A stretch of 64,000 nt of DNA from Gammaproteobacteria bacterium (GCA_022824965.1 JAJDYY010000008.1:320284-384283), one strand, 5' to 3'. Positions 16,726-35,543 are shown, counted from the first letter of the stretch. Notes: a model not told the origin generated them from the sequence alone. Made by a program: numbers and translations.

Positions 16726-18663
16726 TCAGGTCCATACAGTCAGTGAATTTCTGAGTTGTCCAATCGGAAGGAAGTTCTCTTCACACCAACGGAAAAGATA
16801 GTGCCTAGGCTTTGTGGTCAGTACCTGATAAAGCGAGGCTGCCCACTGTCCCCACTCACCGTCGCACCTAGCAAGAATCAACGTGCGAAACATAAGGTTT
16901 GTAGCCTTTAAAGTCTTGGCATCTATCGGAAAATTGCCTGCCCATACTATTGGCTGTGCATTGGCCCAAATTGTATTGACAAAATCTGCAACGATTTTTG
17001 TATTGGATTGAATATCTGCATTTTCTCCACCCACATAGGTACATAGAGCTTCCAGTTGATTCAAGTCTCGGCTTTCATCCTGCTCGAACACTGAAAGAAG
17101 CACTGTGGTGCTTACAGACACATATCCGTGCCGATGCTGCGCGAGATAGACAGCTGCTTCAGCGTAAGATTCGGCAGATATAGTTCCTGCCTGTTCTGCA
17201 CTAAATATTGCAGCTTGAATCCAGACACCCCTTGTGGAAAAGGCTTCTTGGGAATATTGCCGAATTGCAAGGTCCTCACTAACAAGAACGCGGGTCTCGC
17301 CAGCCATAACACCCACACTGAAGGCACCATCTGGAGGAACACGAATCAATCTCTCGCCAAGTTCCGAAAGATTGTTTGGCAATTGCACAGGCTCTACTGA
17401 GCAGTATTCCTCAATGCTTTTTATCAATGACTGCACCGCACTGATCCGTTTGTTCCGGTCTTCAGTGGTTTCAGCATGTCGAAAGAATTGCCCGTCTCGA
17501 AAGTCAAGGCACATCGTATCGCCTTCACCCAGACCAGCATGATCATCGATCATCTCTTTTAGTCGGTTTAGCTCATAAACAGGAATTGCCAAGGGACCAA
17601 GTCGCTCTTTTAACACTGGCAGTACTTTAAGAACTGCTGCATGCCAAGCCGTAAAAGCATCGAGAACTGCACCAGCACGCTCATGTTTCTGGATCACTCT
17701 CAGTGCTTTATCACACTCATCGTGTACACCGAAGCAAACCTTCACTTCTTCGTTTATGGAAACTAGGTATTGCGCAAACGCTATTGCACCGCCTGGCCAA
17801 TCTCCTGCGGCAACAACAAGCGGGACGCCATGTTGCAAGTAGAGATCCGCCTGCTGCCGTGCCATCGCGCTATACCGACGGACTTGCTCCAACACCGGCT
17901 CTATATCATCATCGGCAATGTTTAATGAGGCAAATCCATGTGCTTCAGGAAATCTTTGTCCGAAGTTAGCCGTGAGATGGTGAAATGCCTGTAACCACCA
18001 TGGCTTTAGTTCAGCTACCGACCATGTCTCTTTGACACCTAATGAATTGGTTTTTTCAAACTTATCTCCTATCCTTAACCCCAAACATTTCAAAATGAAT
18101 GAATTGCTATCCGTTTCCGCTTGACCCCATGGTCTGTCCTGAGACTCTCCAATCAATGCTTCGTAATCGCTTCCTTCTGCACTTGTCAGCCGGACCCACA
18201 TACCAGTGCTGACAGTATCACCGATGCCAAGCTCTTGGTCCGATGAAGTTGCCCTCAGTACGAGACCCATAAACTTGAGCACCAGTTCTACATTTGAAAG
18301 GTCTGTGACAAGCGCTTCGTAAGCGATATCGAGAGCACATGCAGGCTCTTCTGAAAAGTCAAAAAGAACATGACTAAGATCGATGCGGTCCATCGAAGCG
18401 CCTGTCAAATTCTCGACTTCCAAACCACTTACCAATTGCCTGATTGCATCCTGGTCATCTATGGCGAAGTATGCCCTTACCACACACAGTAACGTGTAAA
18501 TCTCAGGCCCCTCCTCAAATGCACTCAACAGCGGCGTGATCGCTTTCCCAAAATCACCTTTGTTGAAATGTAAAATTCCTTCCAGCTTCTGAAAGAAGGC
18601 ATTGCATCGAAGATCTGGTGCCAAATCAGAAAAAACCTGGTTGCCCGCTCCCGTACAGGGAAG
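16726..18663 (-). pseudogene. C-terminal portion of a giant Mrr-like nuclease / TPR-repeat protein (downstream frame)
   Basis: 632-aa ORF with helical TPR-like repeat content. Its frame is open upstream to 18663 and overlaps the preceding ORF's frame by about 135 nt that includes an A6/T6 run at 18630..18635. It is probably one gene with the next entry. Confidence 0.5.
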
Positions 18664-20624
18664 TCAAATGCAAGAGCCGTAGCTAGTGTACGAAGTTCCC
18701 CACTGTCACGATCAAGCGCTATCTGTCCATGCAGTGTTTCTATAGTTACATCCAGTAGCCCACGTGCAAGTGCCTCTTCGGCCAGTGTAAGACGGGCAAT
18801 GTATGTGTCATCACCATTCTGAAATGCCAGAGTTGCCGATTCGAATAGTAACTGGGAAATATCTTCTATTCCACGAGTACGTGCTGACTGTGCAAGCACA
18901 GTTAATGCACGTGTATTGCCTACAAAATCTCTACACCCCTTCTCCAGAACGTCACGCACATCCGCTGGCTCCGCCAATTCCATTCGTGCAATAACACCCT
19001 TTGCCTGGACGACACTCTTCTCTGGTTCCGGAAATTGATCCAGGTTTTCATCTGCAAATTCCAAAATTTTAGGCCAGTCCTTATTTGCTATTGCAATCTT
19101 GAACCGAGCAGTAATAACTCCTTCAACATTGTCAGCAAGCCCTGAAATAGTCTCTGAGGCTTGGGCCATATGACCTTGGTCAATTAATAGCGATGCGAGG
19201 TGAACTTTTATGGTTTCTTCGTCGGGAAACCGTCCATGGGCCTGCAGGCCTAGATTGACAGCAGCTTCACTGTTTCCAACAATATGGTACGCCGTCATTA
19301 GATTCATCGGTACCGAAGATAAATCCTTACTGCAGTATATACTTCTCTCTTGAACGCTCTCCCATAACGACTCATATATTGAGATGGCTTCATTCACATC
19401 ATCAACATTACCCAAGGGCTGCCCGCACATGTATCGCTCCCCACCCATAGCCCTTGAAAGCAAGGCATTAGCGCCAAGTTCTTGCAATGCCGCAATTTCA
19501 GGAAATTGACGATAAGCGGATATTGCCTCATCCCACCAGGAATACGGCTCTCCCCGTTCCATGAGCCACTGCACATGAGCCTCGGCAACTTCAGGTGTAT
19601 TCCGAGTTTCTTCAGGTATTCGTGAAATCGGATCGTCAATTGATTCATCATGAATCAGACTTTGGAGATAACACGCTGCAAGGCGTGCATTGCTGGGTTG
19701 ATTCTTTAATTCTTCCTCAGCAAAACTTCTCACGTAATCTCGGTTTCCCAAAAGCAGGAACCCCAGCGCCTTGTTTGCGATTGCTTTAGGATTCTCGGGA
19801 GCAAAATCCCAGGCAGAAATCAATCCAGTAGCCGCTTCCCTTTTCTGCCCAAGTTCCAAGTGACATGCAGCGATGTTTGTTTTGACCCGAAATCGGATAT
19901 GATTTGATGCATCGGAGGCAAGCCTTTTCTCAAGCTTTTGCAGTAATTCAAGGGCGGTTTCAGGCTTACTTTGAATTAGTTCTACATAATCGTTAATGTG
20001 TTTTTCGTGTTCTGAATGAATAGCAGCAGAGTCCGCTATCGCTATTTCACTACTTCTTAAGGAAGCTACTTCTTGGTGACCTACCTCAATTTGGGGAGAC
20101 AGCATATCTGATACCCTCTCGGGGATGTCTCTAATAGCACTTTCTATTTGATCTATCTGCGGCGTATGCGATGGGTCAAAGGCCTTGTGGGCTTCAGGGT
20201 GGCGTTGAATTTCGCGTTGTAATTTATCCCATCCAAAAATATGGATATTGAGATCTAGAGGTCTGGATTTACTTATCTCAAACGAAAGTTTATTTGCCAG
20301 ACTTTGGAGGTTCGCATCGTCAGGAGCGGTTGTGACAATTACATACTCCGTAAGTGGTGGTTCAAATTCTAATGCCTTATTAACCTCAGCACGAACTTCT
20401 TGCTCTAGAAGCTCGCGCCCAACTGCCTTTAATTTACATTGAATGCCAACCGGGCGAGATACATCGCCATCACGATGACCAAAAATATCCACGCCATGCT
20501 GACTTTGTCCTTTGCGGCCGTATTTGCTGGCCATTGGATCGTTCAATAAACAACGCCACAACACCTCATTGCAGTCTTCGAAATCTTGTTCATAAAGTGG
20601 CTTTGGAATCTGTATTGCCATCAC
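18525..20624 (-). CDS. N-terminal portion: Mrr-cat restriction-endonuclease-like domain fused to TPR/helical repeats
   Basis: The N-terminus (FEDCNEVLWRCLL...GQSQHGVDIFGHRDGDVSRPVGIQCKLK...YVIVTTAPDDANLQSLA) matches the Mrr-cat PD-(D/E)xK layout, with a D in GVDI and QCK. The rest is TPR-like helical repeats. No Walker A motif is present. Confidence 0.6.
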   Translation of the reverse strand: MMAIQIPKPLYEQDFEDCNEVLWRCLLNDPMASKYGRKGQSQHGVDIFGHRDGDVSRPVGIQCKLKAVGRELLEQEVRAEVNKALEFEPPLTEYVIVTTAPDDANLQSLANKLSFEISKSRPLDLNIHIFGWDKLQREIQRHPEAHKAFDPSHTPQIDQIESAIRDIPERVSDMLSPQIEVGHQEVASLRSSEIAIADSAAIHSEHEKHINDYVELIQSKPETALELLQKLEKRLASDASNHIRFRVKTNIAACHLELGQKREAATGLISAWDFAPENPKAIANKALGFLLLGNRDYVRSFAEEELKNQPSNARLAACYLQSLIHDESIDDPISRIPEETRNTPEVAEAHVQWLMERGEPYSWWDEAISAYRQFPEIAALQELGANALLSRAMGGERYMCGQPLGNVDDVNEAISIYESLWESVQERSIYCSKDLSSVPMNLMTAYHIVGNSEAAVNLGLQAHGRFPDEETIKVHLASLLIDQGHMAQASETISGLADNVEGVITARFKIAIANKDWPKILEFADENLDQFPEPEKSVVQAKGVIARMELAEPADVRDVLEKGCRDFVGNTRALTVLAQSARTRGIEDISQLLFESATLAFQNGDDTYIARLTLAEEALARGLLDVTIETLHGQIALDRDSGELRTLATALAFDFPVRERATRFFLIWHQIFDAMPSFRSWKEFYISTKVILGKRSRRC

Positions 20625-21038
20625 ATTCTCTAGATAAACTGTCTAAGTTTGTCCTAAAATTTTTTCACCAAACTCGCATTGTTCACGTATTAGAATCTTC
20701 GAAGTCGTTACAATTATTTTGGGAATAGAATGGCTTGGTGCAACTTGGCCCTACCAGCAGACAGCCTTCTGAAGGATAATATAAAAAATTGTAGTGTACC
20801 GAGTTATACATGAAAAGGTTGTAGTCATGGCTTGCTCATCAAGTTCTCACACTCTCCAGGACACACAAACAATGATTATTGACTGCGGATTTATTGCTTT
20901 CTTCAAAGGCAAAGACAATTGGCTAGCCTTAAGCCGGTGCCTCAACACCAAGAACTTTAGCAGGGGAGGTTTTACTTGGACAAAGGCTTTGTACTCGATT
21001 TTTGTATCCATGCTTTGGGAAATATGAAAGGATAATCT

Positions 21039-21992
21039 GTGGGCCATATTTCATTTCAAGAAAAAGAATTCCGATCTGCTGACGAATTATGGGATGCACT
21101 GAGCCCTACCAACAAACTTGTTAGGTCACCAGGCCAACTAATTTACCGTGGACAGGAAAATGCAGAATGGGGCCTCATACCCTCTGTGTTACGGAAAAGC
21201 CCAAGCAATCCTGCAACAATTGCATGGGGTGATAACATAACGGCTGACAACCAAATAAGCACAGAAATTGTGCTACTTGAAACCTTCGCGGGCTTCTGTG
21301 ACCAAGTCGGAGTTAAAATACCTAATGACTCGTTGAAATTTCGAAAAAACGTGCTCGCAGCTGAGAGGCAGGATGAGTATTTCACCAACCCACAATCATG
21401 GCCGAATCCAGCCCTGATTGAAGTGATGGCTCTGGCGCAACAGCACGGAGTGCCAACAAGATTGCTTGACTGGACAAAGAACCCTTATGCGGCCGTATAC
21501 TTTGCGGCTAGTGGAGCCCTCTCAAATGTTGGGAAATGGGGTGAAACTACGGAAACTGATAAATTGGCAGTATGGGTATTGAATATCGATCGAATTTCTG
21601 TATTCCACAGAGTGAATGTTGTCCAGCCTCCTGGTGCAATATCTCCCCACCTTGCTGCCCAGGCTGGCTTGTTCACAGTCTACCCTCACAGCGGGAGCCT
21701 CGGAGAGCCGTTCAATGTCGTTGGGCTTGAAAATCAATTTTCCATACTCCCAGATACTCCTTTGATGAAACTTACGATTCCTGTACAGCAAAGTGCCAGA
21801 TTAAACTGGTTGTGTGCCAAGATTGGGATCACTGGTGCAAGTATTTTCCCTGGTGCTGATGGAGCCGGAAGAGCTGTTATGGACACAGTCAACTCATGGG
21901 CAGCAGCCCGTCACAGTTTACTCTATAAAGCCATGAATCAAATATCAAACAGTCCTGATTGCCAAGATGCAAACAAATCGTCTATCACATAA
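21039..21992 (+). CDS. FRG-domain protein
   Basis: LIYRGQENAEWGLIPSVLR and QHGVPTRLLDWTKNPYAAVYFA match the two signature blocks of the FRG domain (PF08867). Confidence 0.65.
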   Translation: MGHISFQEKEFRSADELWDALSPTNKLVRSPGQLIYRGQENAEWGLIPSVLRKSPSNPATIAWGDNITADNQISTEIVLLETFAGFCDQVGVKIPNDSLKFRKNVLAAERQDEYFTNPQSWPNPALIEVMALAQQHGVPTRLLDWTKNPYAAVYFAASGALSNVGKWGETTETDKLAVWVLNIDRISVFHRVNVVQPPGAISPHLAAQAGLFTVYPHSGSLGEPFNVVGLENQFSILPDTPLMKLTIPVQQSARLNWLCAKIGITGASIFPGADGAGRAVMDTVNSWAAARHSLLYKAMNQISNSPDCQDANKSSIT

Positions 21993-22096
21993 AACATATA
22001 CACTGGAAATTTTCCTTTCGTATGCCTGTGTAGCTTTCCCCGCGACAGGCCTAAGGTGTAGATGATGGTTTACAGAAACTAGAAAAAGGAAATCAA

Positions 22097-22450
22097 ATGC
22101 AACGTGATGATGAATATATCAGAGACCTTCTTTTTGAAATTGAGAAGCAAGACAACTTCCTAGTGATGATTCTTGATACACTTGACGCTTCTCCTGCTGA
22201 AAGAAAAAAATTGTATCACGCTCAGCTTTTATGTGATGCAGGTTACATGATTCAGGTAAGTAATGCAGGCTATCGGTTGACATCTCAAGGACACGACTTC
22301 ATTTCGTCCATCAGGGACGAAGGTATATGGAATAAAACTAAGGCAGCAGTTGCTGAAACAGGTGGTAATGTAACCCTTGAGGTTATAAAAAGTCTTGCTT
22401 ATGGATTCCTCAAGAAGAAAATTTCTACTCATACTGATATAGAGTTATAA
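22097..22450 (+). CDS. DUF2513-family small protein
   Basis: 117 aa: MQRDDEYIRDLLFEIE...LYHAQLLCDAGY...LTSQGHDFISSIRDEGIWNKTK fits the DUF2513 family pattern. An RBS (AAAAAGGAAA) lies 7 nt upstream. Confidence 0.6.
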   Translation: MQRDDEYIRDLLFEIEKQDNFLVMILDTLDASPAERKKLYHAQLLCDAGYMIQVSNAGYRLTSQGHDFISSIRDEGIWNKTKAAVAETGGNVTLEVIKSLAYGFLKKKISTHTDIEL

Positions 22451-22500
22451 GCAGGAGAATGCTTTGCCACTGGCTGGATTAAATTTTTAGTGAGAGGAAC

Positions 22501-22902
22501 TTGAAAGACTGTTGCCGAAACTGCCATTTTCTTGCCCGAAAAAATTATCTGGATAACGTTGCAGGCAGGTATGAACAGGTTCCCTTCGAAAGACGAAAAT
22601 CATTGACCGGTCTTGGGTCATGCTGCTTTCACGGTGAATGGAATAGTACCGGCCTCGCAAGTGAGAGAATAAAGGAAGAGGATGTTCCAAAATTTCTGGA
22701 TCAATCGGGACGCGACTGTTTTTGGCCATACAAAGAAGGCATGTCCTTTGAAGCAGGGAAACTGCGTCAAAGAAAAGAGATTGAGGACAGCAGGACAAGG
22801 AAAAGTTTCTGCCTCATGAAGATAAGCATATTTCTTTCTGCTATAGCAGCACTCAGTGGACTTGTGTATGTCATTGATTTGATCAACACATGGAGTAGCT
22901 AA
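22501..22902 (+). CDS. Cys-rich small protein with C-terminal transmembrane anchor
   Basis: 133 aa with Cys clusters (DCCRNCHF, GSCCFHGEW, DCFWPY) and one C-terminal hydrophobic helix (ISIFLSAIAALSGLVYVIDLI). No family recognised. It lies 51 nt after the DUF2513 gene on the same strand. Confidence 0.45.
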   Translation: MKDCCRNCHFLARKNYLDNVAGRYEQVPFERRKSLTGLGSCCFHGEWNSTGLASERIKEEDVPKFLDQSGRDCFWPYKEGMSFEAGKLRQRKEIEDSRTRKSFCLMKISIFLSAIAALSGLVYVIDLINTWSS

Positions 22903-23004
22903 TCCAGAGACAAACAGCTCTTTCCACTTCACGCTCCAGAAACTTGCCGCAGTGTCAGTAGCAACCTTTACGGTATACCAAGTTATTTCAAAATTTTTCT
23001 GCTT

Positions 23005-23317
23005 ATGGGTACACAAAATTTAGAGGAAGATGACTCGACTTTATTGGAATTGACTAGTCAACAGCACGGCGTACTTGATATTTTGAAAGATAAAGAAACA
23101 GACAAGTACCCCTTGAGCAAGTGGTATCTGGATACACTTTATGCTCTAGATAATGATCTTAACCCGGATCGATTTTGCAAGCAGCCCATTCGCTAAAAGA
23201 GCTACAATAATTCAGGTAGGATTGGCCAGTGATGATGCAATGGTGAAGAGAAATACAAGACAGGCCTTGGAGAATTTGCTTGTATGTGGATATTCCAGTT
23301 TATCGGACTACAAGTAA
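23005..23317 (+). CDS. HEAT-repeat-like small protein, two overlapping ORFs (23005..23196 and 23153..23317); possible frameshifted gene
   Basis: ASDDAMVKRNTRQALENL and DKYPLSKWYLDTLYAL resemble PBS-lyase-type HEAT repeats. The two ORFs overlap in different frames. Confidence 0.3.
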
Positions 23318-23357
23318 AGGAAGATCAGATTCAACTACAGATTATATACAAAATACC

Positions 23358-26300
23358 TCACACCATTTCTTCGGATAACATCTTTGCCTGGGTTAGTACT
23401 AACTCAACCGCACCTTTCTGCTGATCGGGAGGGTATTTGTATTTCCGTAGTAACTGACGAATGAGAATTCTCAGTCTTGCCCGAACACTTTCACGAACTG
23501 CCCAATCCACAGTCAGGTTTTCCCGCAGTTTTTTTGCAATCTCCCTGGCTATCTCAACGAGCACGTCCTCGCCCATCAATTCCTGTGCAGACTCATTCTG
23601 AGCAAGGGCATCATAAAAAGCCTCTTCCTCATCCGACAGATCATGGGCTTCCCTTCGCTTCAGGTCTTCCTGGAATTGCTTCGCCATGGCGATGAGCTCT
23701 TCAATCACCTGTGCCGCTTCAATCGCACGGTTCGCGTACTTACCGATGGATTTCTCGAGAAGCTCACTGAATTTACGTTGCTTGACAACATTGGTGCGGA
23801 ACCTGGTTTTGACCTCGCCCTTAATGAGTCTTTGCAGAAGTTCTACTGCCAGATTCTTGTGCGGCATCTTCATCACTTCTTTCAGGAAATCATCCGAAAG
23901 AATGGAGATATCCGGAGACTCCAGGCCTGCGAGTCTGAAAACATCGGATACGCCCTCACCCACGATTGCCTGGGACAGCAATTGCCGTAATTCAAAGTCC
24001 GTATCTCGAGGTGGCTTCTCTCCGCTTCCGCCTTTTACGAGTGGTGCACGCACTGCCTGATGAAATGCCACTTCAGGGGCCAGTTCCATGGCTTCATCCA
24101 GGGTTCCGCACAATGCAAAGGCCTTAGTCAATTGCAGGACGGTATCGCAGTACCTGCGCTTGCCGTCTTCCTGTTCAAGCACATGATCCATGCAGGCCGG
24201 GATGATCTGAAGCGCGTTTATCCTGTACTCACTCCAGTCCACAGGGTGTAGCAGGTCTCGTGCGACCTGGATCTTCTCTTTAAGGATCCGTAACGCTTCA
24301 GATGAATCAATCGTCGGTCTGCCCTTCCCTTTTGCCGCACTGTAGGTTGCCAAAGCCTCCCTGAGTTGCGGGGCAATGCCGATGTAATCCACCACCAGCC
24401 CACCGGGTTTGTCCTTGAAGACACGATTCACCCTTGCAATGGCCTGTGCCAGATTCGCGCCCTGCATTGGTTTGTCGACATACATGGTCGCAAGACAGGG
24501 TGCATCAAACCCGGTCAGCCACATGTCTCGAACAATAACAATCTTGAGAGGGTCTGAAGGATCTTTGAAACGCTTCTCAAGGTCTTTCTTCTGTGCACGG
24601 CTGGTATGGTGAGGTTGAAGTTCCAGCTTGTCGGATGCAGATGCCGTCATGATGACTTTTATTGCTCCGGACATGTGATCATCAGAATGCCATTCAGGAC
24701 GCAGGGCCACGATCTGGTCATACAGCCTGGCACATATCATACGAGACATGGTCACGATCATGGCTTTGCCAGGCTGTGTCTGACTGCGCATCTCGTAGTG
24801 ATCGATCAGGTCAACCGCCACCTCCTTCAGGCGTGTATCCGTTCCAACGATTGCCTCCAATGCGGACCACTGGCTCTTGGCTTTCTCTTTCTCCTGCTCA
24901 TCCGCTGTCTCACTGTCCAGAATCTCTTCCACTTCCTCATCGATTTGAGGAAGCTCGGCCTGGTTCAGGTTGATCTTGGCCAAGCGTGATTCATAGTAGA
25001 TCGGAACGGTAGCGCCATCATCCACGGCCTGCTGGATGTCGTAGACTGAAACGTAGTTGCCAAAAACCGCTTGGGTGTCGCGATCATCCTGGGAAATAGG
25101 TGTTCCGGTGAACGCGAGGAACGTCGCATTGGGCAAGGCGTCACGCAGGGACTTGGCCAGACCATACTTGATGGCCCCACTCTCGCTATCAATTTTTGCT
25201 TTGAACCCATATTGAGTCCGGTGTGCCTCATCCGCGATCACCACAATATTGTGACGATCCGTGAGCACGGGGAATCGCTCCTCATCCGCATCCAGACCGA
25301 ATTTCTGCATGGTTGTAAAGAAGATGCCGCCCGAAGGCCGATCCATCAAATGTTCCCGCAGTTCTGCACGGGAATCAGCCTGTTTGGGCGTGTCGTTCAG
25401 TAGTTCGCCTGAATTCGCAAAGACATTAAACAACTGGCCATCCAGATCCCTTCTGTCTGTAACCATGACAATGGTGGGGTTCTCCAGCCGAGGCTCCGAG
25501 ATCAAGCGCCCGGCCAGACACGCCATTTCGATACTTTTTCCAGCACCTTGTGTATGCCAGACTACTCCGCCTTTCTTGTCACCCTCCACGTTGCTCGCAG
25601 TCACCACGCTCTCGACTGCTACTTGTACGGCATGGAACTGGTGATAGCCGGCAATCTTCTTGATGAGGGTTCCGTCATCTTCAAATAGACAGAAGTACCG
25701 CAGGTAGTTGAGGAAGATTTCCTTGTTGAAAACTCCCTGGATCAGGGTCTCGAGCTGCTGGTGCTGGCCTAGGGGGTCCAGTTCGACACCATCAATGGTG
25801 CGCCACCGCATGAATCGTTCCCTGTCTGCGGAGATTGACCCCAAACGTGCGTAGATACCGTCTGATATGACCATACAAACGTTATAGCTGAACAGGTCCG
25901 GGATATCCGCCTTGTAAGTCTGTAACTGATCGAATGCGGTCCAGATGTCCGCATCCTCATCCGCACCATTCTTGAGTTCAATGACGGAAAGTGGCAACCC
26001 GTTTACAAACACCAATACATCTGGCCTGCGGTTATGTTTGTGCCCTTGGATCGTGAACTGATTGACGACCAGCCAGTCATTGTTCTCCGGGTCTTCAAAG
26101 TCAATTACTTTGAGTTGTTTGCCGACTTCCTGGTTATCTTCGTGGAAAGTGACCTGGATGCCTTTGGTCAGCCACTCATGCACTTTCCGGTTGCAGGGCA
26201 TCAATGCCGGGATGTTCGGGTTAGTCAATTGAGAAAGTGCCGTGCTGATTGCAGATTTCGGGATATCAGGATTGATGCGAGTCAGTGCTTCCTGCAAGCG

Positions 26301-26447
26301 ATCTTGAAGAATGACTGAACGGTAGTCTTTGCGTTCCGGTTCCTGACCATCCGGGGCAATTTCATACCCGCACTTGTACTGATAGCCGAGTTCCTTAAAC
26401 CAGTCGATGCTTAACAGTTCAACTTGATCTTCGGTCACCAGCGCCAC
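23358..26447 (-). CDS. hsdR: Type I restriction enzyme R subunit
   Basis: 1029 aa with an N-terminal PD-(D/E)xK nuclease region (PDVLVFVNGLPLSVIELK) and SF2 helicase motifs (HTQGAGKS, VIADEAHR). Confidence 0.9.
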   Translation of the reverse strand: MALVTEDQVELLSIDWFKELGYQYKCGYEIAPDGQEPERKDYRSVILQDRLQEALTRINPDIPKSAISTALSQLTNPNIPALMPCNRKVHEWLTKGIQVTFHEDNQEVGKQLKVIDFEDPENNDWLVVNQFTIQGHKHNRRPDVLVFVNGLPLSVIELKNGADEDADIWTAFDQLQTYKADIPDLFSYNVCMVISDGIYARLGSISADRERFMRWRTIDGVELDPLGQHQQLETLIQGVFNKEIFLNYLRYFCLFEDDGTLIKKIAGYHQFHAVQVAVESVVTASNVEGDKKGGVVWHTQGAGKSIEMACLAGRLISEPRLENPTIVMVTDRRDLDGQLFNVFANSGELLNDTPKQADSRAELREHLMDRPSGGIFFTTMQKFGLDADEERFPVLTDRHNIVVIADEAHRTQYGFKAKIDSESGAIKYGLAKSLRDALPNATFLAFTGTPISQDDRDTQAVFGNYVSVYDIQQAVDDGATVPIYYESRLAKINLNQAELPQIDEEVEEILDSETADEQEKEKAKSQWSALEAIVGTDTRLKEVAVDLIDHYEMRSQTQPGKAMIVTMSRMICARLYDQIVALRPEWHSDDHMSGAIKVIMTASASDKLELQPHHTSRAQKKDLEKRFKDPSDPLKIVIVRDMWLTGFDAPCLATMYVDKPMQGANLAQAIARVNRVFKDKPGGLVVDYIGIAPQLREALATYSAAKGKGRPTIDSSEALRILKEKIQVARDLLHPVDWSEYRINALQIIPACMDHVLEQEDGKRRYCDTVLQLTKAFALCGTLDEAMELAPEVAFHQAVRAPLVKGGSGEKPPRDTDFELRQLLSQAIVGEGVSDVFRLAGLESPDISILSDDFLKEVMKMPHKNLAVELLQRLIKGEVKTRFRTNVVKQRKFSELLEKSIGKYANRAIEAAQVIEELIAMAKQFQEDLKRREAHDLSDEEEAFYDALAQNESAQELMGEDVLVEIAREIAKKLRENLTVDWAVRESVRARLRILIRQLLRKYKYPPDQQKGAVELVLTQAKMLSEEMV

Positions 26448-28057
26448 TAGATATCTACCTCTTCAAGAAACTTTTCGGCATCTGAAATGTGGAGTTCACC
26501 CGAGATAAGCCTAGGGAGGAGAATATCGCGGAGCTGGGAAAGACAGTCATTTTCTTGACTCGCAATCTTAATTTTTGCAAATATTGGAAAGCTGATTTCT
26601 TCATAAATTGACATCACGTAATCAGACGGGCGGATCAACTTAAACCTATCAATATCTGATTTACCCAAATGAATGACTGTGGTCGCCGTCTCTGTAGACT
26701 CAACTTCATAAAGCGGTCTTTCCAGCCCGAACTTAAGGAAAGCAGTGGGGATATTTGTATTTGGGATAAATTTACAGATTCGCTGGTTCATCCAAGAGTC
26801 CTTTCCTGTCCAGTAATAACACCTAAATTCACCATCCATCCCGACAACTAGGTCACCTGCTTTGATTAAAGTTCCTTTTGGATGTGCTTCTTCTGTAAAA
26901 ACTTCTGATCCACCTTTTGCAAGGTCTCTAATTCTCACAAGAGGCAATCCTCGCCTGTCAGAATTAAACAACTTGGACTTAAATGGCGCTCCATAAATTA
27001 CTTCACACAAATCGTAGATTGAAGCAATACTCCACCCCTTTGGGATCTCCCCAATCTCCGACTCCACCAAAGTATCAGGGAATAAATCACTGATTTCAGA
27101 CGGAAGACCCGTAGGATGGCCTTCTGCCTTTGCTCGGACAGGGTCAAAGTCAACAAACCATGATTTGAAGATTGCCTTGGCTATCTCTTCAAGGGTTTTG
27201 TTGGTTTTTTGGTTGAGTTCGATTTTGTCGTCGAGGGTGCCGAGGATATGGGCGATGGCACGTTGCTCGGAAAGAGGTGGAAGAGAAATAGCTATATGGT
27301 CTAAAGCTTCAGCAGGCACGCGTTGGCGCCCTGAAGTACCAGTCATCTGACCAATCGCATACTCACGAAACCTGTTCCATCTCGTCAGGTAGTAGGCGAA
27401 ACCACCATCTGTGACATCCGGGCGCCCACGGATAACTATAAATTCGGTAGAGCCATGTGCTGATATCATCTGCTTTGTAGCGTTGTAGCGAGCAATCTTG
27501 CCATTCTCAAGACATGGCGTGATTCGAGCCATGAGCGTGTCGCCATCTAGGAAGCGAGAGCCCCCACCTCTGAATTCACGCTCTTCTATTGCATACGTAT
27601 TTCTTGAATCTCCGTTGATAGCAGCCATGCCAACAAAAGGGTAGGTCTCGCCGCGGACAAGTTGCACCTTCGGATTAACCTCAACCGCTTGACTGAAAGG
27701 CACCTCACACCAATCTGAACTGCTTTCCGGGACAGGAAAAAGTGTTTTGTGCTCTTCTATAACCTGCCTAAAGCCACCACTGACTCGATTCATGTCCACG
27801 ACATCAACTGTATAAGGAAGGCTGGAGTCTTCGAAAGCATCCTGCAGTATATTGATCGTCCTGAAGTCCAACGGCGTATCGCCCTCGACTGCTAAATCAA
27901 GATCAGACGAATCTTTTGTTGTCCAAGTGGCACGGCTGCCAAATACCCATACCTTCACATCACTCGGCAAGTGAGTGCACAGGATATCCTGCACAATTTT
28001 CAAGTGGTCAGAACGAATATCAACGGAACTAACCAAGGGTCCGATTCTTCTTCTCAA
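26447..28057 (-). CDS. hsdS: Type I R-M specificity subunit HsdS with an in-frame N-terminal MNT-type nucleotidyltransferase (HI0073-like) domain
   Basis: Residues 1 to about 100 carry the NTase motif VFGSRATWTTKDSSDLDLAV plus LPYTVDVVD (MNT antitoxin-like). The remainder has two TRDs and the conserved HsdS central and C-terminal coiled-coil repeats. No stop or obvious internal start separates the two parts. Confidence 0.75.
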   Translation of the reverse strand: MRRRIGPLVSSVDIRSDHLKIVQDILCTHLPSDVKVWVFGSRATWTTKDSSDLDLAVEGDTPLDFRTINILQDAFEDSSLPYTVDVVDMNRVSGGFRQVIEEHKTLFPVPESSSDWCEVPFSQAVEVNPKVQLVRGETYPFVGMAAINGDSRNTYAIEEREFRGGGSRFLDGDTLMARITPCLENGKIARYNATKQMISAHGSTEFIVIRGRPDVTDGGFAYYLTRWNRFREYAIGQMTGTSGRQRVPAEALDHIAISLPPLSEQRAIAHILGTLDDKIELNQKTNKTLEEIAKAIFKSWFVDFDPVRAKAEGHPTGLPSEISDLFPDTLVESEIGEIPKGWSIASIYDLCEVIYGAPFKSKLFNSDRRGLPLVRIRDLAKGGSEVFTEEAHPKGTLIKAGDLVVGMDGEFRCYYWTGKDSWMNQRICKFIPNTNIPTAFLKFGLERPLYEVESTETATTVIHLGKSDIDRFKLIRPSDYVMSIYEEISFPIFAKIKIASQENDCLSQLRDILLPRLISGELHISDAEKFLEEVDI

Positions 28058-28466
28058 GCTGTATCAAGAGATAACGTGATTCTGCGAGAAAGTCAGGAGC
28101 ACTGTTTAAAACTTCTTGTGCCTTCTGTTCATCATACGTATGACTTGTGGTGCCTCTGTTGCGGCGATACTCTCTCCAAACAACAAGTTCAGCCTGCACT
28201 AACGACTGTTTGGATGCCTCACGTATCACATCATTAAAAGACATGTCGTCAACCTCTACAGGATTAGCAGAAGCTAGTTCCAGGTAGCGCTTAATCATTT
28301 TAAAGGACAACTCATAGGTAAATTCAAAAGCTTGAATTACAGCCGCCCTCATATGTCGCTTGAGACGAGGCTCAGCCATTGTCAACTCTGAATCATATAT
28401 CTCAAGAGCCTCTTCTAGTTGTGAAATGGCTTGTTTCAACGACGACAGGTCCAAAGGCAAAGGCAT
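28029..28466 (-). CDS. HepT-like HEPN toxin (HI0074 / NTase substrate-binding family)
   Basis: 145 aa with an intact Rx4HxY HEPN motif (RGTTSHTY) and HI0074-family N-terminus (LSSLKQAISQLEEALE). It overlaps the MNT::hsdS start by 29 nt. Confidence 0.7.
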   Translation of the reverse strand: MPLPLDLSSLKQAISQLEEALEIYDSELTMAEPRLKRHMRAAVIQAFEFTYELSFKMIKRYLELASANPVEVDDMSFNDVIREASKQSLVQAELVVWREYRRNRGTTSHTYDEQKAQEVLNSAPDFLAESRYLLIQLEKKNRTLG

Positions 28467-28544
28467 CTTTTATCTCCAATATGTAGGATATGAGCTAGTT
28501 GTTTCTCAAAAGTGATGCACGACTTATTTTCACGTCATCTCAGG

Positions 28545-30101
28545 CTATCCTGATCTTGCAAACCCCAACTTTTTTAGGTTTTCAGCGATAGTCTGATCAA
28601 GCTGAGCACCTTCAACCTGCTGCGTATGCAGTTGCGCAGCCAAGTGTCTCATCTTGTCTTCGAAAGGCTCACCGTCATCCTCTTGTGGCGCAGCCCCAAC
28701 ATAGCGTCCAGGTGTGAGGACAAATCCACTCTTCTCAATCTCATCAATGGATGCCGACTTACAAAAACCCAATACATCCTCGTACTCTTCTCCCTGCTTC
28801 CACGCATGCACTGTATCTGCAATCTTGGCAATGTCTTCGTCAGTCAGGACCCTGTTGACCCGTGTCTCCATCGTTCCCAGCTGACGCGCATCAATAAACA
28901 AGGTCTCCTCACGCCTGCCACGACCATTCGCAGTCTTGTCATTAGTCATAAACCACAGGCATACAGGAATCTGTGTGTTCAGAAACAACTGGCCCGGCAG
29001 TGCTACCATCACTTCCACCACATCACCACGGATCATTGCCTTACGAATCTGGCCTTCGCTGCTTGCGTTCGAACTCATGGAACCATTTGCAAGGACAACG
29101 CCGACCTGTCCTCCTGGTCGCAGCTTCCACAGCATGTGCTGCAGCCATGCGAAGTTTGCATTCCCCACAGGGGGTCTGCCGTATATCCAGCGAGGATCTT
29201 CCTCATACTTCTCTCCACCCCAGTCAGAAATGTTGAAGGGTGGATTTGCCATGATGTAATCGAACTTCAAATCCGGGAACTGGTCCCGTGCAAAGGTATC
29301 CGCGGGTTCTTTACCTAAATCTGCAGCAAATCCCCGAATCGCCAGGTTCATGGCGGCCAGCCGCCAGGTTGTAGGGTTGCTCTCCTGCCCGTAGATGGAG
29401 ATATCGTCCACCCGGCCACCATGTGACTGCACAAACCTTTCACTCTGAACGAACATCCCGCCTGACCCGCAACAAGGGTCATACACCCGACCAGTATGCG
29501 GCGAGAGGATGGCCACCAGGGTTTTCACTACATGTGAAGGGGTATAGAACTGCCCACCCTTCTTGCCCTCGGCTGAGGCAAACTGACCCAGGAAGTACTC
29601 GTAGACCTCGCCCAGCAAGTCACTGGAGTCGTATTTGTCACTGAATCCGATGGTGGAGATCAGATCAATCAGCTCACCCAGTACCCCCGGACCCAGCTGT
29701 GCCCGCCCGAAGCGTTTGTCCAGCTTCCCCCGCAGGGATGGATTTTCGTTCTCTATCAGGGTCATTGCCTTGTCCACAAGGGACCCAATATCAGGTTGCT
29801 TTGCCTTGGCTCTGAGAGATTCCCAACGTGCCTCTTGTGGCACCCAGAAGACATTGTCTTGTGTGTAATAGTCACGCTCCTCAAGCGCTTCTTCGAACTC
29901 AGCAGGGGTTTCGCTTAAAAAATATTCAGACGAGGGCTCTGACACCATGCGCCGGATTTCTTCCTGCTGCTTAATGAAGGTGTCTGAGATGTATTTGAGA
30001 AAGATGAGGCCCAGCACGATGTGCTTGTACTCCGCTGCATCCATCTGCGCGCGAAGCTTGTCCGCAGACGCCCATAACTTTTTCTTTAAGTCATCACCCA
30101 T
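28545..30101 (-). CDS. hsdM: Type I R-M DNA methyltransferase subunit (N6-adenine)
   Basis: HsdM N-terminal domain ([32 protein letters not shown]), AdoMet motif I (DPCCGSGGM) and NPPF catalytic motif. Confidence 0.92.
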
Positions 30102-30722: not shown

Positions 30723-30890
30723 ACAGGTTGGTTAAATACAGGTTATGGTTTTGTTATTTTAGCAAGCTGATTAGTATCGGGGTGGGTGGAGCAGGTACTG
30801 CACAAACATCACAACCCAAAATTATCTACTACCCTTTGTTTCCGTTAATCAGAGTTGGTTCACCTAACGGGAGATGAGGCAAGATTACTC

Positions 30891-31940
30891 ATGTACAACA
30901 AGAACTATGAAGGTAAGGCATGTGATGCCGTCGTGAAAGCCATCGAGAAGCGAACGGGCAAAATACGTGCACACATTCGCCGTCCCGAGGTGGATGGAGT
31001 CGGTCCGCCGGTGGATTTGCGCTTGAAGATAGGAGCCCAGGAGTATGTGATCGAGCACACGCGAATCGAGCTGTTCGAGAATCAAATCAAGATGGAAGTA
31101 ACCATCAGAGAGATCCTTGACTACTTCAAGGAAAATCTCTCACTGCCATTCCCGAGCCCGGCGTACTACGAGTTGCAATACCCAATTGACGTTTCATTGC
31201 CAGACGGAAAAGTCAAACGCAATCGTGCTTTGAAGAGCCTCGCAGACTGGGTATGCATGAATGAAGGGTTGCTGCGAGACAAGATGATGTGTTGGCCCGA
31301 GGGACCCTATGATCTCTACTATTCTGATCATTCTGTGTGTGGCAAGCCGGATGGTTTTTATTGTGCATTCGAATTGCGTCGCTGGCCAGATGCCGTCTCT
31401 ATCAGACAAAAACCCGGTTCTCTTTGGTCAAGACCGATTTATCCGGAAGATATGAACCCTCTGATAAGAAAAAGGCTGATGCGGGCATTTTCCAGGAAAT
31501 GCAAAAAGCTTGAAGCGTGCAAGATGGATGGGGCGCGGACGGTCCTGGTACTGGAAAGCGGGGGTCCAGGACTCACACATTTTAAGTTCAGGGGTGACCT
31601 CCTTCCAGGGATATTGGCAGAACACAAAAATGCGCCGGATGAGATTTTTCTGGTGCAGACCTATCACGATCTCTGGGAGGTCGTTCCCTTGAAGCATGGC
31701 AACGGTCATTGGCCTGATACGGGCATGCCTGAACTAGGCGGGTCTTATTACAATCTAAACAACTCTGACATTCCAAAATGGTTGGACAGCCTGCCTCGAC
31801 CTATGCGTGAGGGCCTGCAGCTGGATCGAATGCACATACCCTATGAACAGGGATTTGCATTTGAAAGCTTTGAGAAAGGTGAACTGAGTGACCTGACCCA
31901 AGCGAGACGGACAGAAATACAGACAGGCAATGGCACATGA
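30891..31940 (+). CDS. Hypothetical protein of about 349 aa, no recognisable domain
   Basis: Long uninterrupted ORF with the start set at the ATG at 30891 (the ORF track starts at TTG 30855). The N-terminal EVDGVGPPVDLRLKIGAQEYVIEHTRIE could be a degenerate PD-(D/E)xK-like element, which is speculative. The C-terminal half is rich in Trp, Pro and His. Confidence 0.5.
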   Translation: MYNKNYEGKACDAVVKAIEKRTGKIRAHIRRPEVDGVGPPVDLRLKIGAQEYVIEHTRIELFENQIKMEVTIREILDYFKENLSLPFPSPAYYELQYPIDVSLPDGKVKRNRALKSLADWVCMNEGLLRDKMMCWPEGPYDLYYSDHSVCGKPDGFYCAFELRRWPDAVSIRQKPGSLWSRPIYPEDMNPLIRKRLMRAFSRKCKKLEACKMDGARTVLVLESGGPGLTHFKFRGDLLPGILAEHKNAPDEIFLVQTYHDLWEVVPLKHGNGHWPDTGMPELGGSYYNLNNSDIPKWLDSLPRPMREGLQLDRMHIPYEQGFAFESFEKGELSDLTQARRTEIQTGNGT

Positions 31941-34112: not shown

Positions 34113-35303
34113 TCACGTGTCGGCTTTCAACTCGTCGAGATAGTCTGCCCATACCTGCATCATCTCTCTTCGCTCTGGCAGATGGGCAGTGCGGTTGTAA
34201 GCACGCCCGTTTGGATCACGCACACTGTGGGCAAGTTGGTGCTCGATATAGTCTGGACGAAACTTGAGCACCTCATCCAAGATCGTTCGTGCCATCGCCC
34301 GAAACCCATGGCCGCTCATCTCCTCCTTGCCAATCCCCAGGCAGCGCATAGCAGCCAGAATGGCGTTATTGCTCATTGGTCTGTCGCCCTTAGGACTCCT
34401 TGCGCTGGAAAATACATACTGACCATTTCCGGTCAAAGGTCTTAATTCCCGCAAAATCTCAACAGCTTGTCTTGAAAGAGGTACGATGTGTTGGGTCCGG
34501 GTTTTGGTCACCTGAAAACGCCACTCGGCATTATCCATATCCATATCCTCCCACTGTGCGTTGCGGAGTTCGCCAGGGCGTACAAAAACCAGCGGCGCAA
34601 GCCTAAGAGCGCAACGTACAGGGAGTGTTCCCTCGTAACCATCGAGTGTCCTCAGGAGTTTCCCTACTTCTTTGGGCTCAGTGACTGAAGCAAAGTGCTT
34701 CCCTTTCACAGGGGGCAATGCGCCCTTCAAGTCTCCCGAAGGGTTGTACGTGGCGCGACCAGTGGCAATCGCATAGCGAAAAACCTGGCTGCAGTAGCTT
34801 AGCACCCTATAAGCAGTTTCCAGTGCCCCACGCTGTTCGATCCGCTGAACTGTCTCAAGTAGTTGGGGTGCTGTAATTCTAGTAATCGGCCGACTGCCAA
34901 TCCATGGGAATACATCTCCTTTCAGTCTACTAATGACGCGAGTCGCATGGCCAGAAGACCAGTGGGGTGCATACTTGGCAAACCATTCATTTGCAAGGGC
35001 CTCGAAACTGTTCGTTGTCTCTTCAGCTTTTGCAGCTTTTTCTGCCTTGCGCTGCTCGCTCGGGTCGACTCCGTTCACTAGCAGCTTGCGGGCCTCATCA
35101 CGCCTAGTACGTGCATCCTTCAGCGTGACATCGGGATAAACACCTAGCGAGAGGCGCTTCTCCTTCCCTTCAAAACGGTACTTCAAACGCCACCACTTTC
35201 CTCCGTGGGGCGCAACTTCCAGGTACAGCCCACCGCCATCAAACAGCTTTCTAGCTTTTTCACCAGCCTTGGCATTTCGGATTGCAGCATTGGACAAGCT
35301 CAT
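34113..35303 (-). CDS. int: P4/CP4-57-type tyrosine integrase
   Basis: MSLSNAAIRNAKAGEKARKLFDGGGLYLEVAPHGGKWWRLKYRFEGKEKRLSLGVYP is the classic P4-integrase N-terminus. The C-terminal catalytic region carries HGFRAMARTIL and an LAHS tail. The gene is adjacent to the tRNA 3' end. Confidence 0.9.
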   Translation of the reverse strand: MSLSNAAIRNAKAGEKARKLFDGGGLYLEVAPHGGKWWRLKYRFEGKEKRLSLGVYPDVTLKDARTRRDEARKLLVNGVDPSEQRKAEKAAKAEETTNSFEALANEWFAKYAPHWSSGHATRVISRLKGDVFPWIGSRPITRITAPQLLETVQRIEQRGALETAYRVLSYCSQVFRYAIATGRATYNPSGDLKGALPPVKGKHFASVTEPKEVGKLLRTLDGYEGTLPVRCALRLAPLVFVRPGELRNAQWEDMDMDNAEWRFQVTKTRTQHIVPLSRQAVEILRELRPLTGNGQYVFSSARSPKGDRPMSNNAILAAMRCLGIGKEEMSGHGFRAMARTILDEVLKFRPDYIEHQLAHSVRDPNGRAYNRTAHLPERREMMQVWADYLDELKADT

Positions 35304-35466
35304 GGGGGCAACTTCCCTTATGAATGGTGTGCTTGCCCCCAATTCTGCCCCCAGTTGCCCCCGGATGTCAATAAATCTCAAAGGATCACTTTGGACGCAA
35401 TACCACTGTAAGTGTATGATTATATGAATATATTAGGATGTTATAGGACGTCTTTGGACTTTGACT

Positions 35467-35543
35467 TGGTGGCTATGGTTGGACTTGAACCAACGACCCC
35501 AGCATTATGAATGCTGTGCTCTAACCAACTGAGCTACATAGCC
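35467..35543 (-). tRNA. tRNA-Met (anticodon CAT, elongator-like)
   Basis: GGCTATGTAGCTCAGTTGGTTAGAGCACAGCATTCATAATGCTGGGGTCGTTGGTTCAAGTCCAACCATAGCCACCA on the minus strand. It has a cloverleaf with a CAT anticodon loop and an encoded CCA. Confidence 0.85.

What the first reader, a model, noticed from the sequence alone, without database searches (positions are those of the whole stretch)
21039..23317. Same-strand cluster FRG – DUF2513 – Cys-rich membrane protein – HEAT-like ORFs: candidate uncharacterised anti-phage module
Four small genes sit head-to-tail with gaps of 51 to 104 nt. They lie between a giant Mrr-nuclease/TPR gene and a complete type I R-M system, inside a tRNA-integrated island. 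An FRG-domain protein, a DUF2513 protein and a 133-aa Cys-rich protein with a single C-terminal TM helix all have no assigned function. The tight, co-oriented arrangement inside a defense island is the classic signature used to discover new immune systems. The Cys-rich membrane protein could act as a membrane-disrupting effector, which is speculative.
Basis: partly seen in the sequence, partly recalled or inferred. Interest (0 to 1): 0.8.

Follow-up and report, generated by a model that had tools for sequence, protein, structure and literature searches.

The report
Patchwork of unrelated defence-island gene cassettes
The four neighbouring small genes are not one immune system: they are separately mobile pieces stacked in a defence island, namely an already-catalogued candidate defence gene (FRG), a common small DNA-binding-type gene that sometimes travels with it, an undescribed small membrane protein, and a stretch with no supported gene.

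Summary
The ORFs exist as described. FRG (21039-21992), DUF2513 (22097-22450) and the Cys-rich tail-anchored protein (22501-22902) are real genes under purifying selection (dN/dS 0.15-0.24). The two "HEAT-like" ORFs (23005-23317) have no homologue or domain hit and are unsupported.

The cluster is not a conserved module.
- The FRG-DUF2513-CysTM triplet occurs nowhere else.
- FRG+DUF2513 is a 1.5-kb block (20948-22451) shared at about 88% nucleotide identity with three other contigs, and the flanks differ in two of them.
- DUF2513 at the same divergence also occurs without FRG.
- None of 80 species-level FRG loci carries DUF2513 or CysTM.
- The CysTM gene (22478-22903) turns up on its own in four other contexts.

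FRG is not unassigned. It matches PADLOC's single-gene candidate PDC-S15 (E 6e-34), and the literature classes it as an ADP-ribosyltransferase-fold predicted NADase effector. My fold search agrees only weakly.

CysTM belongs to an undescribed family of about 110 clusters (CxxCH…C…C domain plus C-terminal transmembrane helix). It has no Pfam or PDB match, and this family is the only new item.

Verdict: an ordinary defence-island mosaic, of low to moderate interest.

The parts
20948..22451 (+). FRG+DUF2513 co-mobile 1.5-kb block. It starts about 75-90 nt upstream of the FRG start and ends exactly at the DUF2513 stop codon.
   Evidence: blastn finds 87-90% nt identity to L116, L124 and L125 over exactly this span. 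The flanks are unrelated in L124 and L125.
21039..21992 (+). FRG-domain protein, 317 aa, GTG start with AAGGA ribosome-binding site. It matches PADLOC PDC-S15 and has an ART-like fold, so it is a predicted NAD+-targeting effector. The last ~30 codons (21891-21985) are absent from most homologues and belong to the sequence upstream of DUF2513.
22097..22450 (+). DUF2513 protein, 117 aa. The Pfam match covers the N-terminal part. The C-terminal stretch is strongly conserved (IRDEGIW-KTK-AVAETGG…LKKKIS-HTG).
   Evidence: Pfam DUF2513 1.7e-14; phrog_585 9e-23; 45 close homologues. It is shared on its own with L117 (22082-22492) and L118 (22078-22462). dN/dS is 0.15-0.21.
22478..22903 (+). CysTM cassette: gene 22501-22902 (133 aa, TTG start) plus 23 nt carrying the ribosome-binding site. 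The protein has a CxxCH…C…C cytoplasmic domain and a single long helix ending in a C-terminal transmembrane segment (tail-anchored).
   Evidence: This span alone is 93% nt identical to L004 and L005, and the flanks are unrelated. Homologues P0121, P0122 and P0168 and a family of 111 representatives exist. The ribosome-binding site and the TTG/ATG start are conserved. AF2 pLDDT is 92. In the family, 109 of 112 members have a C-terminal TM helix and 95 of 112 have the CxxC motif. There is no Pfam, NCBIfam, PADLOC or PHROG hit.
22904..23357 (.). Spacer between the convergent CysTM and hsdR genes. It holds two short overlapping ORFs (23005-23196 and 23153-23317, in different frames). There is no evidence of a gene here, so it is probably non-coding or a decayed remnant.
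   Evidence: No family hits. The 63-aa product is a singleton cluster. tblastn of the fused peptide finds nothing in plasmids. Rfam finds nothing.
16726..20624 (-). Context: TPR + PIN (PIN-TPR-GreABC) giant conflict gene. In this window it is broken into two ORFs by a frameshift near 18630-18663.
   Evidence: Pfam. L116 has an intact 1311-aa gene, and tblastn shows a frame change from -3 to -2 in the window.
23358..30101 (-). Context: type I R-M system made of hsdR 23358-26447, hsdS with an N-terminal nucleotidyltransferase domain 26447-28057, a HEPN-like NTase_sub_bind gene 28029-28466, and hsdM 28545-30101.
   Evidence: Pfam.
34113..35543 (-). Context: island integrase (34113-35381) next to tRNA-Met (35467-35543).
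   Evidence: ARAGORN, Pfam, GC profile.

Best explanation
The 2.3-kb stretch is a mosaic built by successive insertion or recombination in the variable cargo slot of a tRNA-Met-linked defence island. That slot lies between a TPR-PIN conflict gene and a type I R-M system. It holds three evolutionarily independent units.

(1) FRG with DUF2513. FRG is a stand-alone, single-gene candidate defence protein (PADLOC PDC-S15) with an ADP-ribosyltransferase-like fold. Inferred mechanism: on infection it consumes or transfers ADP-ribose from NAD+, which aborts phage replication. It arrived together with a small DUF2513 protein on a 1.5-kb block. FRG does not require DUF2513. Inferred role for DUF2513: a promiscuous winged-helix-type DNA-binding protein or regulator that also lives in phages, plasmids and housekeeping operons.

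(2) A separately acquired, ORF-sized cassette. It encodes a tail-anchored membrane protein with a putative four-Cys zinc-binding cytoplasmic domain, from an undescribed family. It brings no promoter of its own, so it is probably read through from DUF2513. Its function is unknown. My best guess is a small membrane-acting exclusion or abortive-infection effector, or a toxin-like accessory gene of mobile elements.

(3) A 455-nt leftover with no real gene.

Shown here: gene reality, domain and family assignments, block boundaries, and lack of co-occurrence. Inferred: every biochemical activity and the defence role.
For: Independent mobility:
- The FRG+DUF2513 block 20948-22451 recurs with different flanks in L124 and L125.
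- DUF2513 alone recurs in L117 and L118, in plasmids beside varied genes, and between pheS/pheT and gcvPA/gcvPB.
- CysTM alone recurs in L003, L004/L005, L130 and L131/L132.

No co-occurrence:
- 0 of 80 FRG loci have DUF2513 or CysTM, and 0 of 30 metagenome DUF2513 loci have FRG.
- With filters off, the only hit is one marginal match (E 0.011) in L078.
- No neighbour family recurs in more than 7 of 80 FRG loci.
- The nearest independent FRG (62% identity) stands alone beside hsdR.

FRG identity:
- PDC-S15 6e-34.
- The ART-superfamily NADase prediction is in PMC9503650 and PMC12522546.

Gene reality: dN/dS is 0.15-0.24.

CysTM family and structure.

No terminator is predicted between DUF2513 and CysTM.
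Against: - FRG+DUF2513 does recur in three flank contexts, which could mean functional coupling.
- No experimental anti-phage activity for FRG/PDC-S15 was found in the searchable literature.
- Only five independent CysTM contexts were seen, so a partner gene further away or in other lineages could have been missed.
- The DUF2513 HMM used for the co-occurrence test is subfamily-level, so very distant DUF2513 relatives next to FRG could escape it.
Confidence: 0.6

Rival explanations
1. FRG and DUF2513 form a genuine two-gene system, a regulated variant of PDC-S15. DUF2513 would be the transcriptional regulator, sensor or antitoxin of the FRG effector. CysTM would be unrelated.
For: - The 1.5-kb block with both genes is inherited as a unit in window/L116, L124 and L125, with sharp common boundaries.
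- The 104-nt intergenic region is conserved.
- In L078, one distant FRG is followed by an ORF with a marginal DUF2513-like match (E 0.011).
- In L117, DUF2513 follows another putative effector, an HSDR_N-like nuclease. This suggests it may pair with interchangeable effectors.
Against: - 0 of 80 species-level FRG loci have a clear DUF2513.
- The closest independent FRG (62% identity) lacks it.
- DUF2513 at equal divergence (dS about 0.4) exists without FRG.
- In L118 only a remnant of FRG remains, yet DUF2513 is intact.
- The same DUF2513 subfamily is stably embedded between pheS and pheT in a whole clade.
Confidence: 0.2
2. All four or five ORFs form one operon-encoded anti-phage system with the Cys-rich membrane protein as effector.
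For: The genes are co-oriented with short gaps, no terminator is predicted between them, and the location is a defence island.
Against: - The triplet is found nowhere else.
- CysTM homologues never sit beside FRG or DUF2513 in 1.28 Mb of fetched FRG and DUF2513 neighbourhoods.
- The sister island L116 diverges right after the DUF2513 stop.
- The last two ORFs have no support as genes.
Confidence: 0.03
3. None of the three genes is an immune gene. They would be ordinary mobile-element cargo: FRG an ART-like toxin or NAD-metabolising enzyme with another role, DUF2513 a generic regulator or nucleoid-type protein, and CysTM a small membrane toxin, addiction gene or entry-exclusion gene.
For: - No experimental defence data exist for FRG.
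- Distant FRG loci did not show type I R-M or island integrase neighbours.
- DUF2513 occurs in housekeeping operons and is common in phages (phrog_585) and plasmids.
- CysTM relatives lie among toxin-antitoxin pairs and transposases.
Against: - FRG was selected as a PADLOC defence candidate and is predicted to be an immunity effector by comparative genomics.
- In this lineage and the nearest one it sits beside R-M, AbiE, GmrSD and Schlafen-like genes.
- Inactivating mutations (a nonsense codon in the L116 FRG, a frameshift in the giant gene here) are typical of costly defence genes.
Confidence: 0.15

Closest known systems
PADLOC PDC-S15 (single-gene phage-defence candidate; FRG-domain proteins, Pfam PF08867)
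   Same: Full-length HMM matches (6e-34 and 7e-29). The size is the same, about 290-320 aa. The behaviour is single-gene, with no conserved neighbour in 80 species.
   Different: This copy has a lineage-specific tail of about 25 aa, and in this lineage it is linked to a DUF2513 gene. PDC-S15 is itself only a candidate, with no published validation found.
ADP-ribosyltransferase (ART) superfamily NADase/ADP-ribosylating immune effectors (e.g. RES, DarT, Tpt1/KptA-like)
Small wHTH regulators that accompany diverse defence systems (e.g. BrxR/CapW type)
   Same: DUF2513 is a small protein with a Pfam DUF match that I recall as HTH-clan. It lies beside varied defence genes: FRG, an HSDR_N-like nuclease, large methyltransferases, and a UvrD-like helicase.
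   Different: It has no WYL or ligand domain. It lies downstream of its neighbours rather than upstream. It also sits inside the pheST and gcvP operons and is common in phages. Its fold was not tested here.
Small single-pass membrane abortive-infection or superinfection-exclusion proteins
   Same: CysTM is short, has a single transmembrane helix, is carried on mobile islands, and occurs as a lone gene.
   Different: It has a conserved CxxCH…C…C cytoplasmic domain with no Pfam or PDB counterpart and a tail-anchored topology. No functional data exist, so the resemblance is by analogy only.

Membership tests
Pfam FRG (PF08867) / PADLOC PDC-S15 | Sequence match to the family HMMs above threshold | tested here: met
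   Pfam 67.4 bits against a cut-off of 25. PADLOC PDC-S15 models score 6.2e-34 and 7.1e-29, the latter over residues 25-281.
Pfam FRG (PF08867) / PADLOC PDC-S15 | Acts as a single gene, with no obligatory partner | tested here: met
   No neighbour family is present in more than 7 of 80 species-level loci. DUF2513 and CysTM are absent from all 80.
Pfam FRG (PF08867) / PADLOC PDC-S15 | Protects against phage | not testable with these tools
   Needs plaque assays. No published test was found.
ART (ADP-ribosyltransferase) superfamily | Split beta-sheet ART core fold | tested here: inconclusive
ART (ADP-ribosyltransferase) superfamily | NAD+-binding catalytic motif (H-Y-E or R-S-E) and NADase/transferase activity | not tested
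   Invariant residues are listed (R37, G38, R52, D88, S98, T140, R141, D144, W145, Y154, Q208), but they were not mapped onto an ART active site. Activity needs biochemistry.
Pfam DUF2513 (PF10711) | HMM match above the gathering score | tested here: met
   54.4 bits against a cut-off of 29.6, residues 3-90. Also phrog_585 at 9e-23.
Two-gene toxin-antitoxin or effector-regulator pair (FRG + DUF2513) | The partners co-occur across the families' diversity | tested here: not met
   The pair is seen only in one lineage at 82% aa identity or above. It is absent in 80 FRG loci and in more than 35 other DUF2513 loci.
Integron gene cassette (considered because the units are ORF-sized) | attC-type imperfect palindrome at the cassette end, and an integron integrase nearby | tested here: not met
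   No suitable inverted repeats flank the units. The island integrases are phage-type tyrosine recombinases (Phage_integrase/Arm-DNA-bind_3 and Integrase_1).
Any described family for the Cys-rich TM protein | Match to Pfam, NCBIfam, PADLOC or PHROGs, or a solved structure | tested here: not met
HEAT-repeat proteins (last two ORFs) | HEAT/ARM repeat profile match; a conserved ORF | tested here: not met
   No Pfam hit at E 0.1 or better. The ORF is a singleton and the two ORFs overlap in different frames.

The most novel reading that the evidence does not exclude
The Cys-rich protein represents an undescribed, widespread family: about 110 clusters at 50% identity, a CxxCH…C…C putative zinc domain, and a tail anchor. 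The novel reading is that this family is a stand-alone membrane-acting phage-exclusion or abortive-infection effector that hops between defence and toxin-antitoxin islands as a promoter-less, ORF-sized cassette. A parallel reading is that DUF2513 is a similarly ORF-sized mobile gene able to lodge between co-translated housekeeping genes (pheS/pheT, gcvPA/gcvPB).
Probability: 0.15. Interest if true: 0.6.

Novelty: new member of a known kind. Interest (0 to 1): 0.3.

Why it matters
Tight, co-oriented small genes in a defence island are often taken as a new system. This case shows that such adjacency can come from stacking of independent cassettes. It removes a false four-gene candidate and points experiments at the right units: FRG alone, FRG+DUF2513, and CysTM alone. 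FRG/PDC-S15 remains an untested predicted NADase effector that is worth a simple plaque and NAD+ assay. The Cys-rich tail-anchored family has a confident predicted structure and no database description, so it could be registered as a new family. The behaviour of DUF2513 inside housekeeping operons is a small open question in its own right.

Tried and rejected
- Sequence search of PDB with the FRG and DUF2513 profiles gave only chance-level hits.
tblastn of CysTM against plasmids found nothing.
- I looked for a partner of CysTM. The ~181/186-aa membrane proteins downstream in L003 and L130 are not homologous.
- I looked for integron-like attC sites, repeats, promoters, terminators and Rfam RNAs in 20.5-23.5 kb. 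Nothing exceeded chance.
- I looked for a direct repeat of the tRNA-Met end at the left island border. There was no exact match of 12 nt or longer.
- I tested whether FRG is generally linked to type I R-M. It is in L126-L129 but in none of the 80 distant loci.
- Literature searches for DUF2513, TPR-GreAB-C-PIN and FRG+integron returned nothing useful.
- I tried to rescue the last two ORFs by fusing them across the frame change. The fused peptide had no homologue.

Full report
**What is there.** The window is a metagenome scaffold (KELL22-1 scaffold_9). A low-GC segment (0.42-0.53 against about 0.59) runs from roughly 16.6 to 35.5 kb and ends at an integrase next to tRNA-Met. It carries:
- a TPR + PIN (PIN-TPR-GreABC) giant gene on the minus strand;
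- the plus-strand ORFs of the finding;
- a complete type I R-M system with an embedded nucleotidyltransferase/HEPN-like pair;
- a second integrase.

A related genome (L003) has a different island at the same chromosomal site, so this is a true integration hotspot.

**Are the ORFs genes?**
- FRG has over 400 homologues and DUF2513 has 45 close ones.
- The Cys-rich ORF was not called by two automatic annotations of this same sequence. It nevertheless has homologues at 93%, 56% and 50% identity and a family of 111 representative clusters with full-length matches.
- Its TTG (or ATG) start and GGAG-type ribosome-binding site are conserved.
- Pairwise dN/dS is 0.15-0.24 for all three genes.
- The last two ORFs (23005-23196 and 23153-23317) overlap in different frames and hit no family. 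The 63-aa product is a singleton among 15 billion proteins, and a frame-fused peptide has no tblastn match. "HEAT-like" is not supported, and I treat 22904-23357 as spacer or remnant.

**Is it one module?** No. blastn against related contigs shows three separate units with sharp borders.

*(a) The FRG+DUF2513 block.* Window 20948/20964-22451 covers FRG, its upstream 75-90 nt, the intergenic region and DUF2513 up to its stop.
- The block is 87-90% identical in L116, L124 and L125.
- The flanks differ in L124 (downstream: a 171-aa gene and a Schlafen/AlbA_2 protein) and in L125 (upstream: CoiA-like and others; downstream: GmrSD).

*(b) DUF2513 on its own.* It is shared with L117 (22082-22492, 84% aa) and with L118 (72% aa).
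- In L117 the upstream gene is an HSDR_N-like nuclease.
- In L118 only a ~95-nt remnant of the FRG 3' end survives upstream.

*(c) The Cys-rich gene on its own.* Span 22478-22903 is 93% identical in L004/L005, and both flanks are unrelated.
- More distant members are lone genes in L003 (right after the island integrase, near DarTG and a type ISP R-M), in L130, and in L131/L132 (among BrnTA, HicAB and transposases).
- Their downstream ~180-aa membrane proteins are not homologous to each other.

Even the sister island L116, which shares the giant gene at 90% nt, diverges immediately after the DUF2513 stop.

**Systematic co-occurrence test.**
- I fetched 80 FRG loci from different species, each with ±6 kb, and 30 DUF2513 metagenome loci.
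- HMMs for the three families found no DUF2513 or CysTM in any FRG locus and no FRG in any DUF2513 locus.
- With filters off and E up to 10, the only hit was one marginal DUF2513-like match (E 0.011) in a 378-aa ORF after FRG in L078.
- Clustering of all neighbours showed no family in more than 7 of 80 FRG loci.
- The nearest independent FRG (62% identity; L126-L129) stands alone, convergent with a type I hsdR.
The FRG-DUF2513 pair recurs only within one recent lineage.

**What the parts are.**

*FRG.*
- It matches PADLOC's single-gene candidate PDC-S15 over its full length and phrog_4962.
- Two papers place FRG in the ADP-ribosyltransferase superfamily and predict a NADase-type antiviral effector (PMC9503650, PMC12522546).
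- I found no experimental test of FRG/PDC-S15.

*DUF2513.*
- It matches Pfam DUF2513 and phrog_585.
- It lies in plasmids beside a large methyltransferase, an HNH/S8-peptidase/ATPase set, or a UvrD-like helicase.
- Unexpectedly, in at least 10 metagenome loci it sits between pheS and pheT with a GTGA start/stop overlap. In one locus it sits between gcvPA and gcvPB.
- It is therefore not a dedicated FRG partner.
- Its winged-helix nature is from my memory of the Pfam clan and was not tested here.

*The Cys-rich protein.*
- It belongs to a family with invariant C8, C42 and C73 and near-invariant C5 and H9. An amphipathic segment and a C-terminal transmembrane helix follow, with a median of 6 residues after the helix.
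- The AF2 model (pLDDT 92) shows a small mixed N-terminal domain and one helix of about 50 residues.
- It has no Pfam, NCBIfam, PADLOC or PHROG match and no PDB analogue.
- Zinc binding, cytoplasmic orientation and any effector role are inferences.

**Most likely story.** The slot between the TPR-PIN gene and hsdR accumulates cargo. An FRG+DUF2513 block and, separately, a promoter-less CysTM cassette were stacked there. The cassette carries only 23 nt upstream of its start, and no terminator is predicted before it, so CysTM is probably transcribed by read-through. Adjacency here reflects island dynamics, not a shared mechanism. FRG is the credible defence gene, with a predicted NAD+-directed abortive mechanism. 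The alternative that DUF2513 regulates or neutralises FRG keeps some probability (about 0.2) because the pair moved together three times.

**Novelty and score.** FRG is a new member of a catalogued candidate family, and DUF2513 is a known DUF. The four-gene system is not real. The only new items are the undescribed CxxCH tail-anchored family and the odd operon-internal placement of DUF2513. Interest is 0.3.

Noticed in passing
window 16726-20624 (-), frameshift near 18630-18663: The TPR + PIN (PIN-TPR-GreABC) conflict gene is a single 1311-aa ORF in the sister contig L116. In this window it is split into two overlapping ORFs by a frame change (-3 to -2). This is either a pseudogene or an assembly error. 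No Mrr domain was detected.
   Followed up: partly
L116 4354-5247 (homologue of window 21039-21992): In the sister island the FRG gene carries an in-frame stop at codon 53, replacing the invariant R52, while the giant TPR-PIN gene there is intact. This window shows the reverse pattern, which suggests alternate inactivation of costly genes.
   Followed up: partly
L086-L091, L095-L097, L099 (e.g. L097 2783-7681); L110 4658-7949: The same DUF2513 subfamily (39-56% identity) sits between pheS and pheT in at least 10 metagenome loci, with its GTG start overlapping the pheS stop (GTGA). PheS is 72-90% identical across these loci and DUF2513 only about 50%. In L110 the gene lies between gcvPA and gcvPB. 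A variable extra gene, such as a 270-aa hydrolase-like ORF, can follow it.
   Followed up: partly
window 26447-28466 (-): Inside the type I R-M operon, the hsdS ORF (536 aa) carries an N-terminal Polbeta/NTP_transf_2 nucleotidyltransferase domain fused in frame to the specificity domains. A HEPN-like NTase_sub_bind gene overlaps its start. This looks like an MNT-HEPN toxin-antitoxin pair with the MNT half fused to HsdS.
   Followed up: no
window 21891-21985 and L118 9619-9715: The last ~30 codons of this FRG ORF are absent from most FRG homologues, which are 288-300 aa. The same sequence is found as an isolated remnant upstream of DUF2513 in L118. The FRG reading frame therefore runs into sequence that belongs to the DUF2513 unit, which marks a recombination joint.
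   Followed up: partly
L003 8419-20393: A different island occupies the same ychF/pth/tRNA site. It has a related integrase, then the CysTM homologue directly after it, then two unknown genes (a 181-aa multi-TM protein and a 242-aa protein), a second integrase, a type ISP-like R-M and DarT-Macro (DarTG).
   Followed up: no
L126-L129 (e.g. L126 8001-16882): The closest independent FRG homologues (62% identity) lie convergent with, and 42 nt from, a type I hsdR that has a C-terminal Schlafen/AlbA_2 domain. AbiE or AAA_15+DUF4276 pairs are inserted between hsdS and hsdM.
   Followed up: no
window 30855-31940 (+): A 361-aa ORF lies between hsdM and the second integrase. The gene caller called it as 349 aa. 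It has no Pfam, NCBIfam or PHROG match.
   Followed up: no
L078 4065-6246: One distant FRG gene is followed, 110 nt downstream on the same strand, by a 378-aa ORF with a marginal DUF2513-like match (E 0.011). This is the only hint of FRG-DUF2513 linkage outside the close lineage.
   Followed up: no
window 21039-21992 vs phrog_4962: FRG matches positions 168-458 of a 467-position phage protein family (phrog_4962, E 6.5e-60). Phage or prophage versions therefore carry an extra N-terminal region of about 165 residues that is absent here.
   Followed up: no
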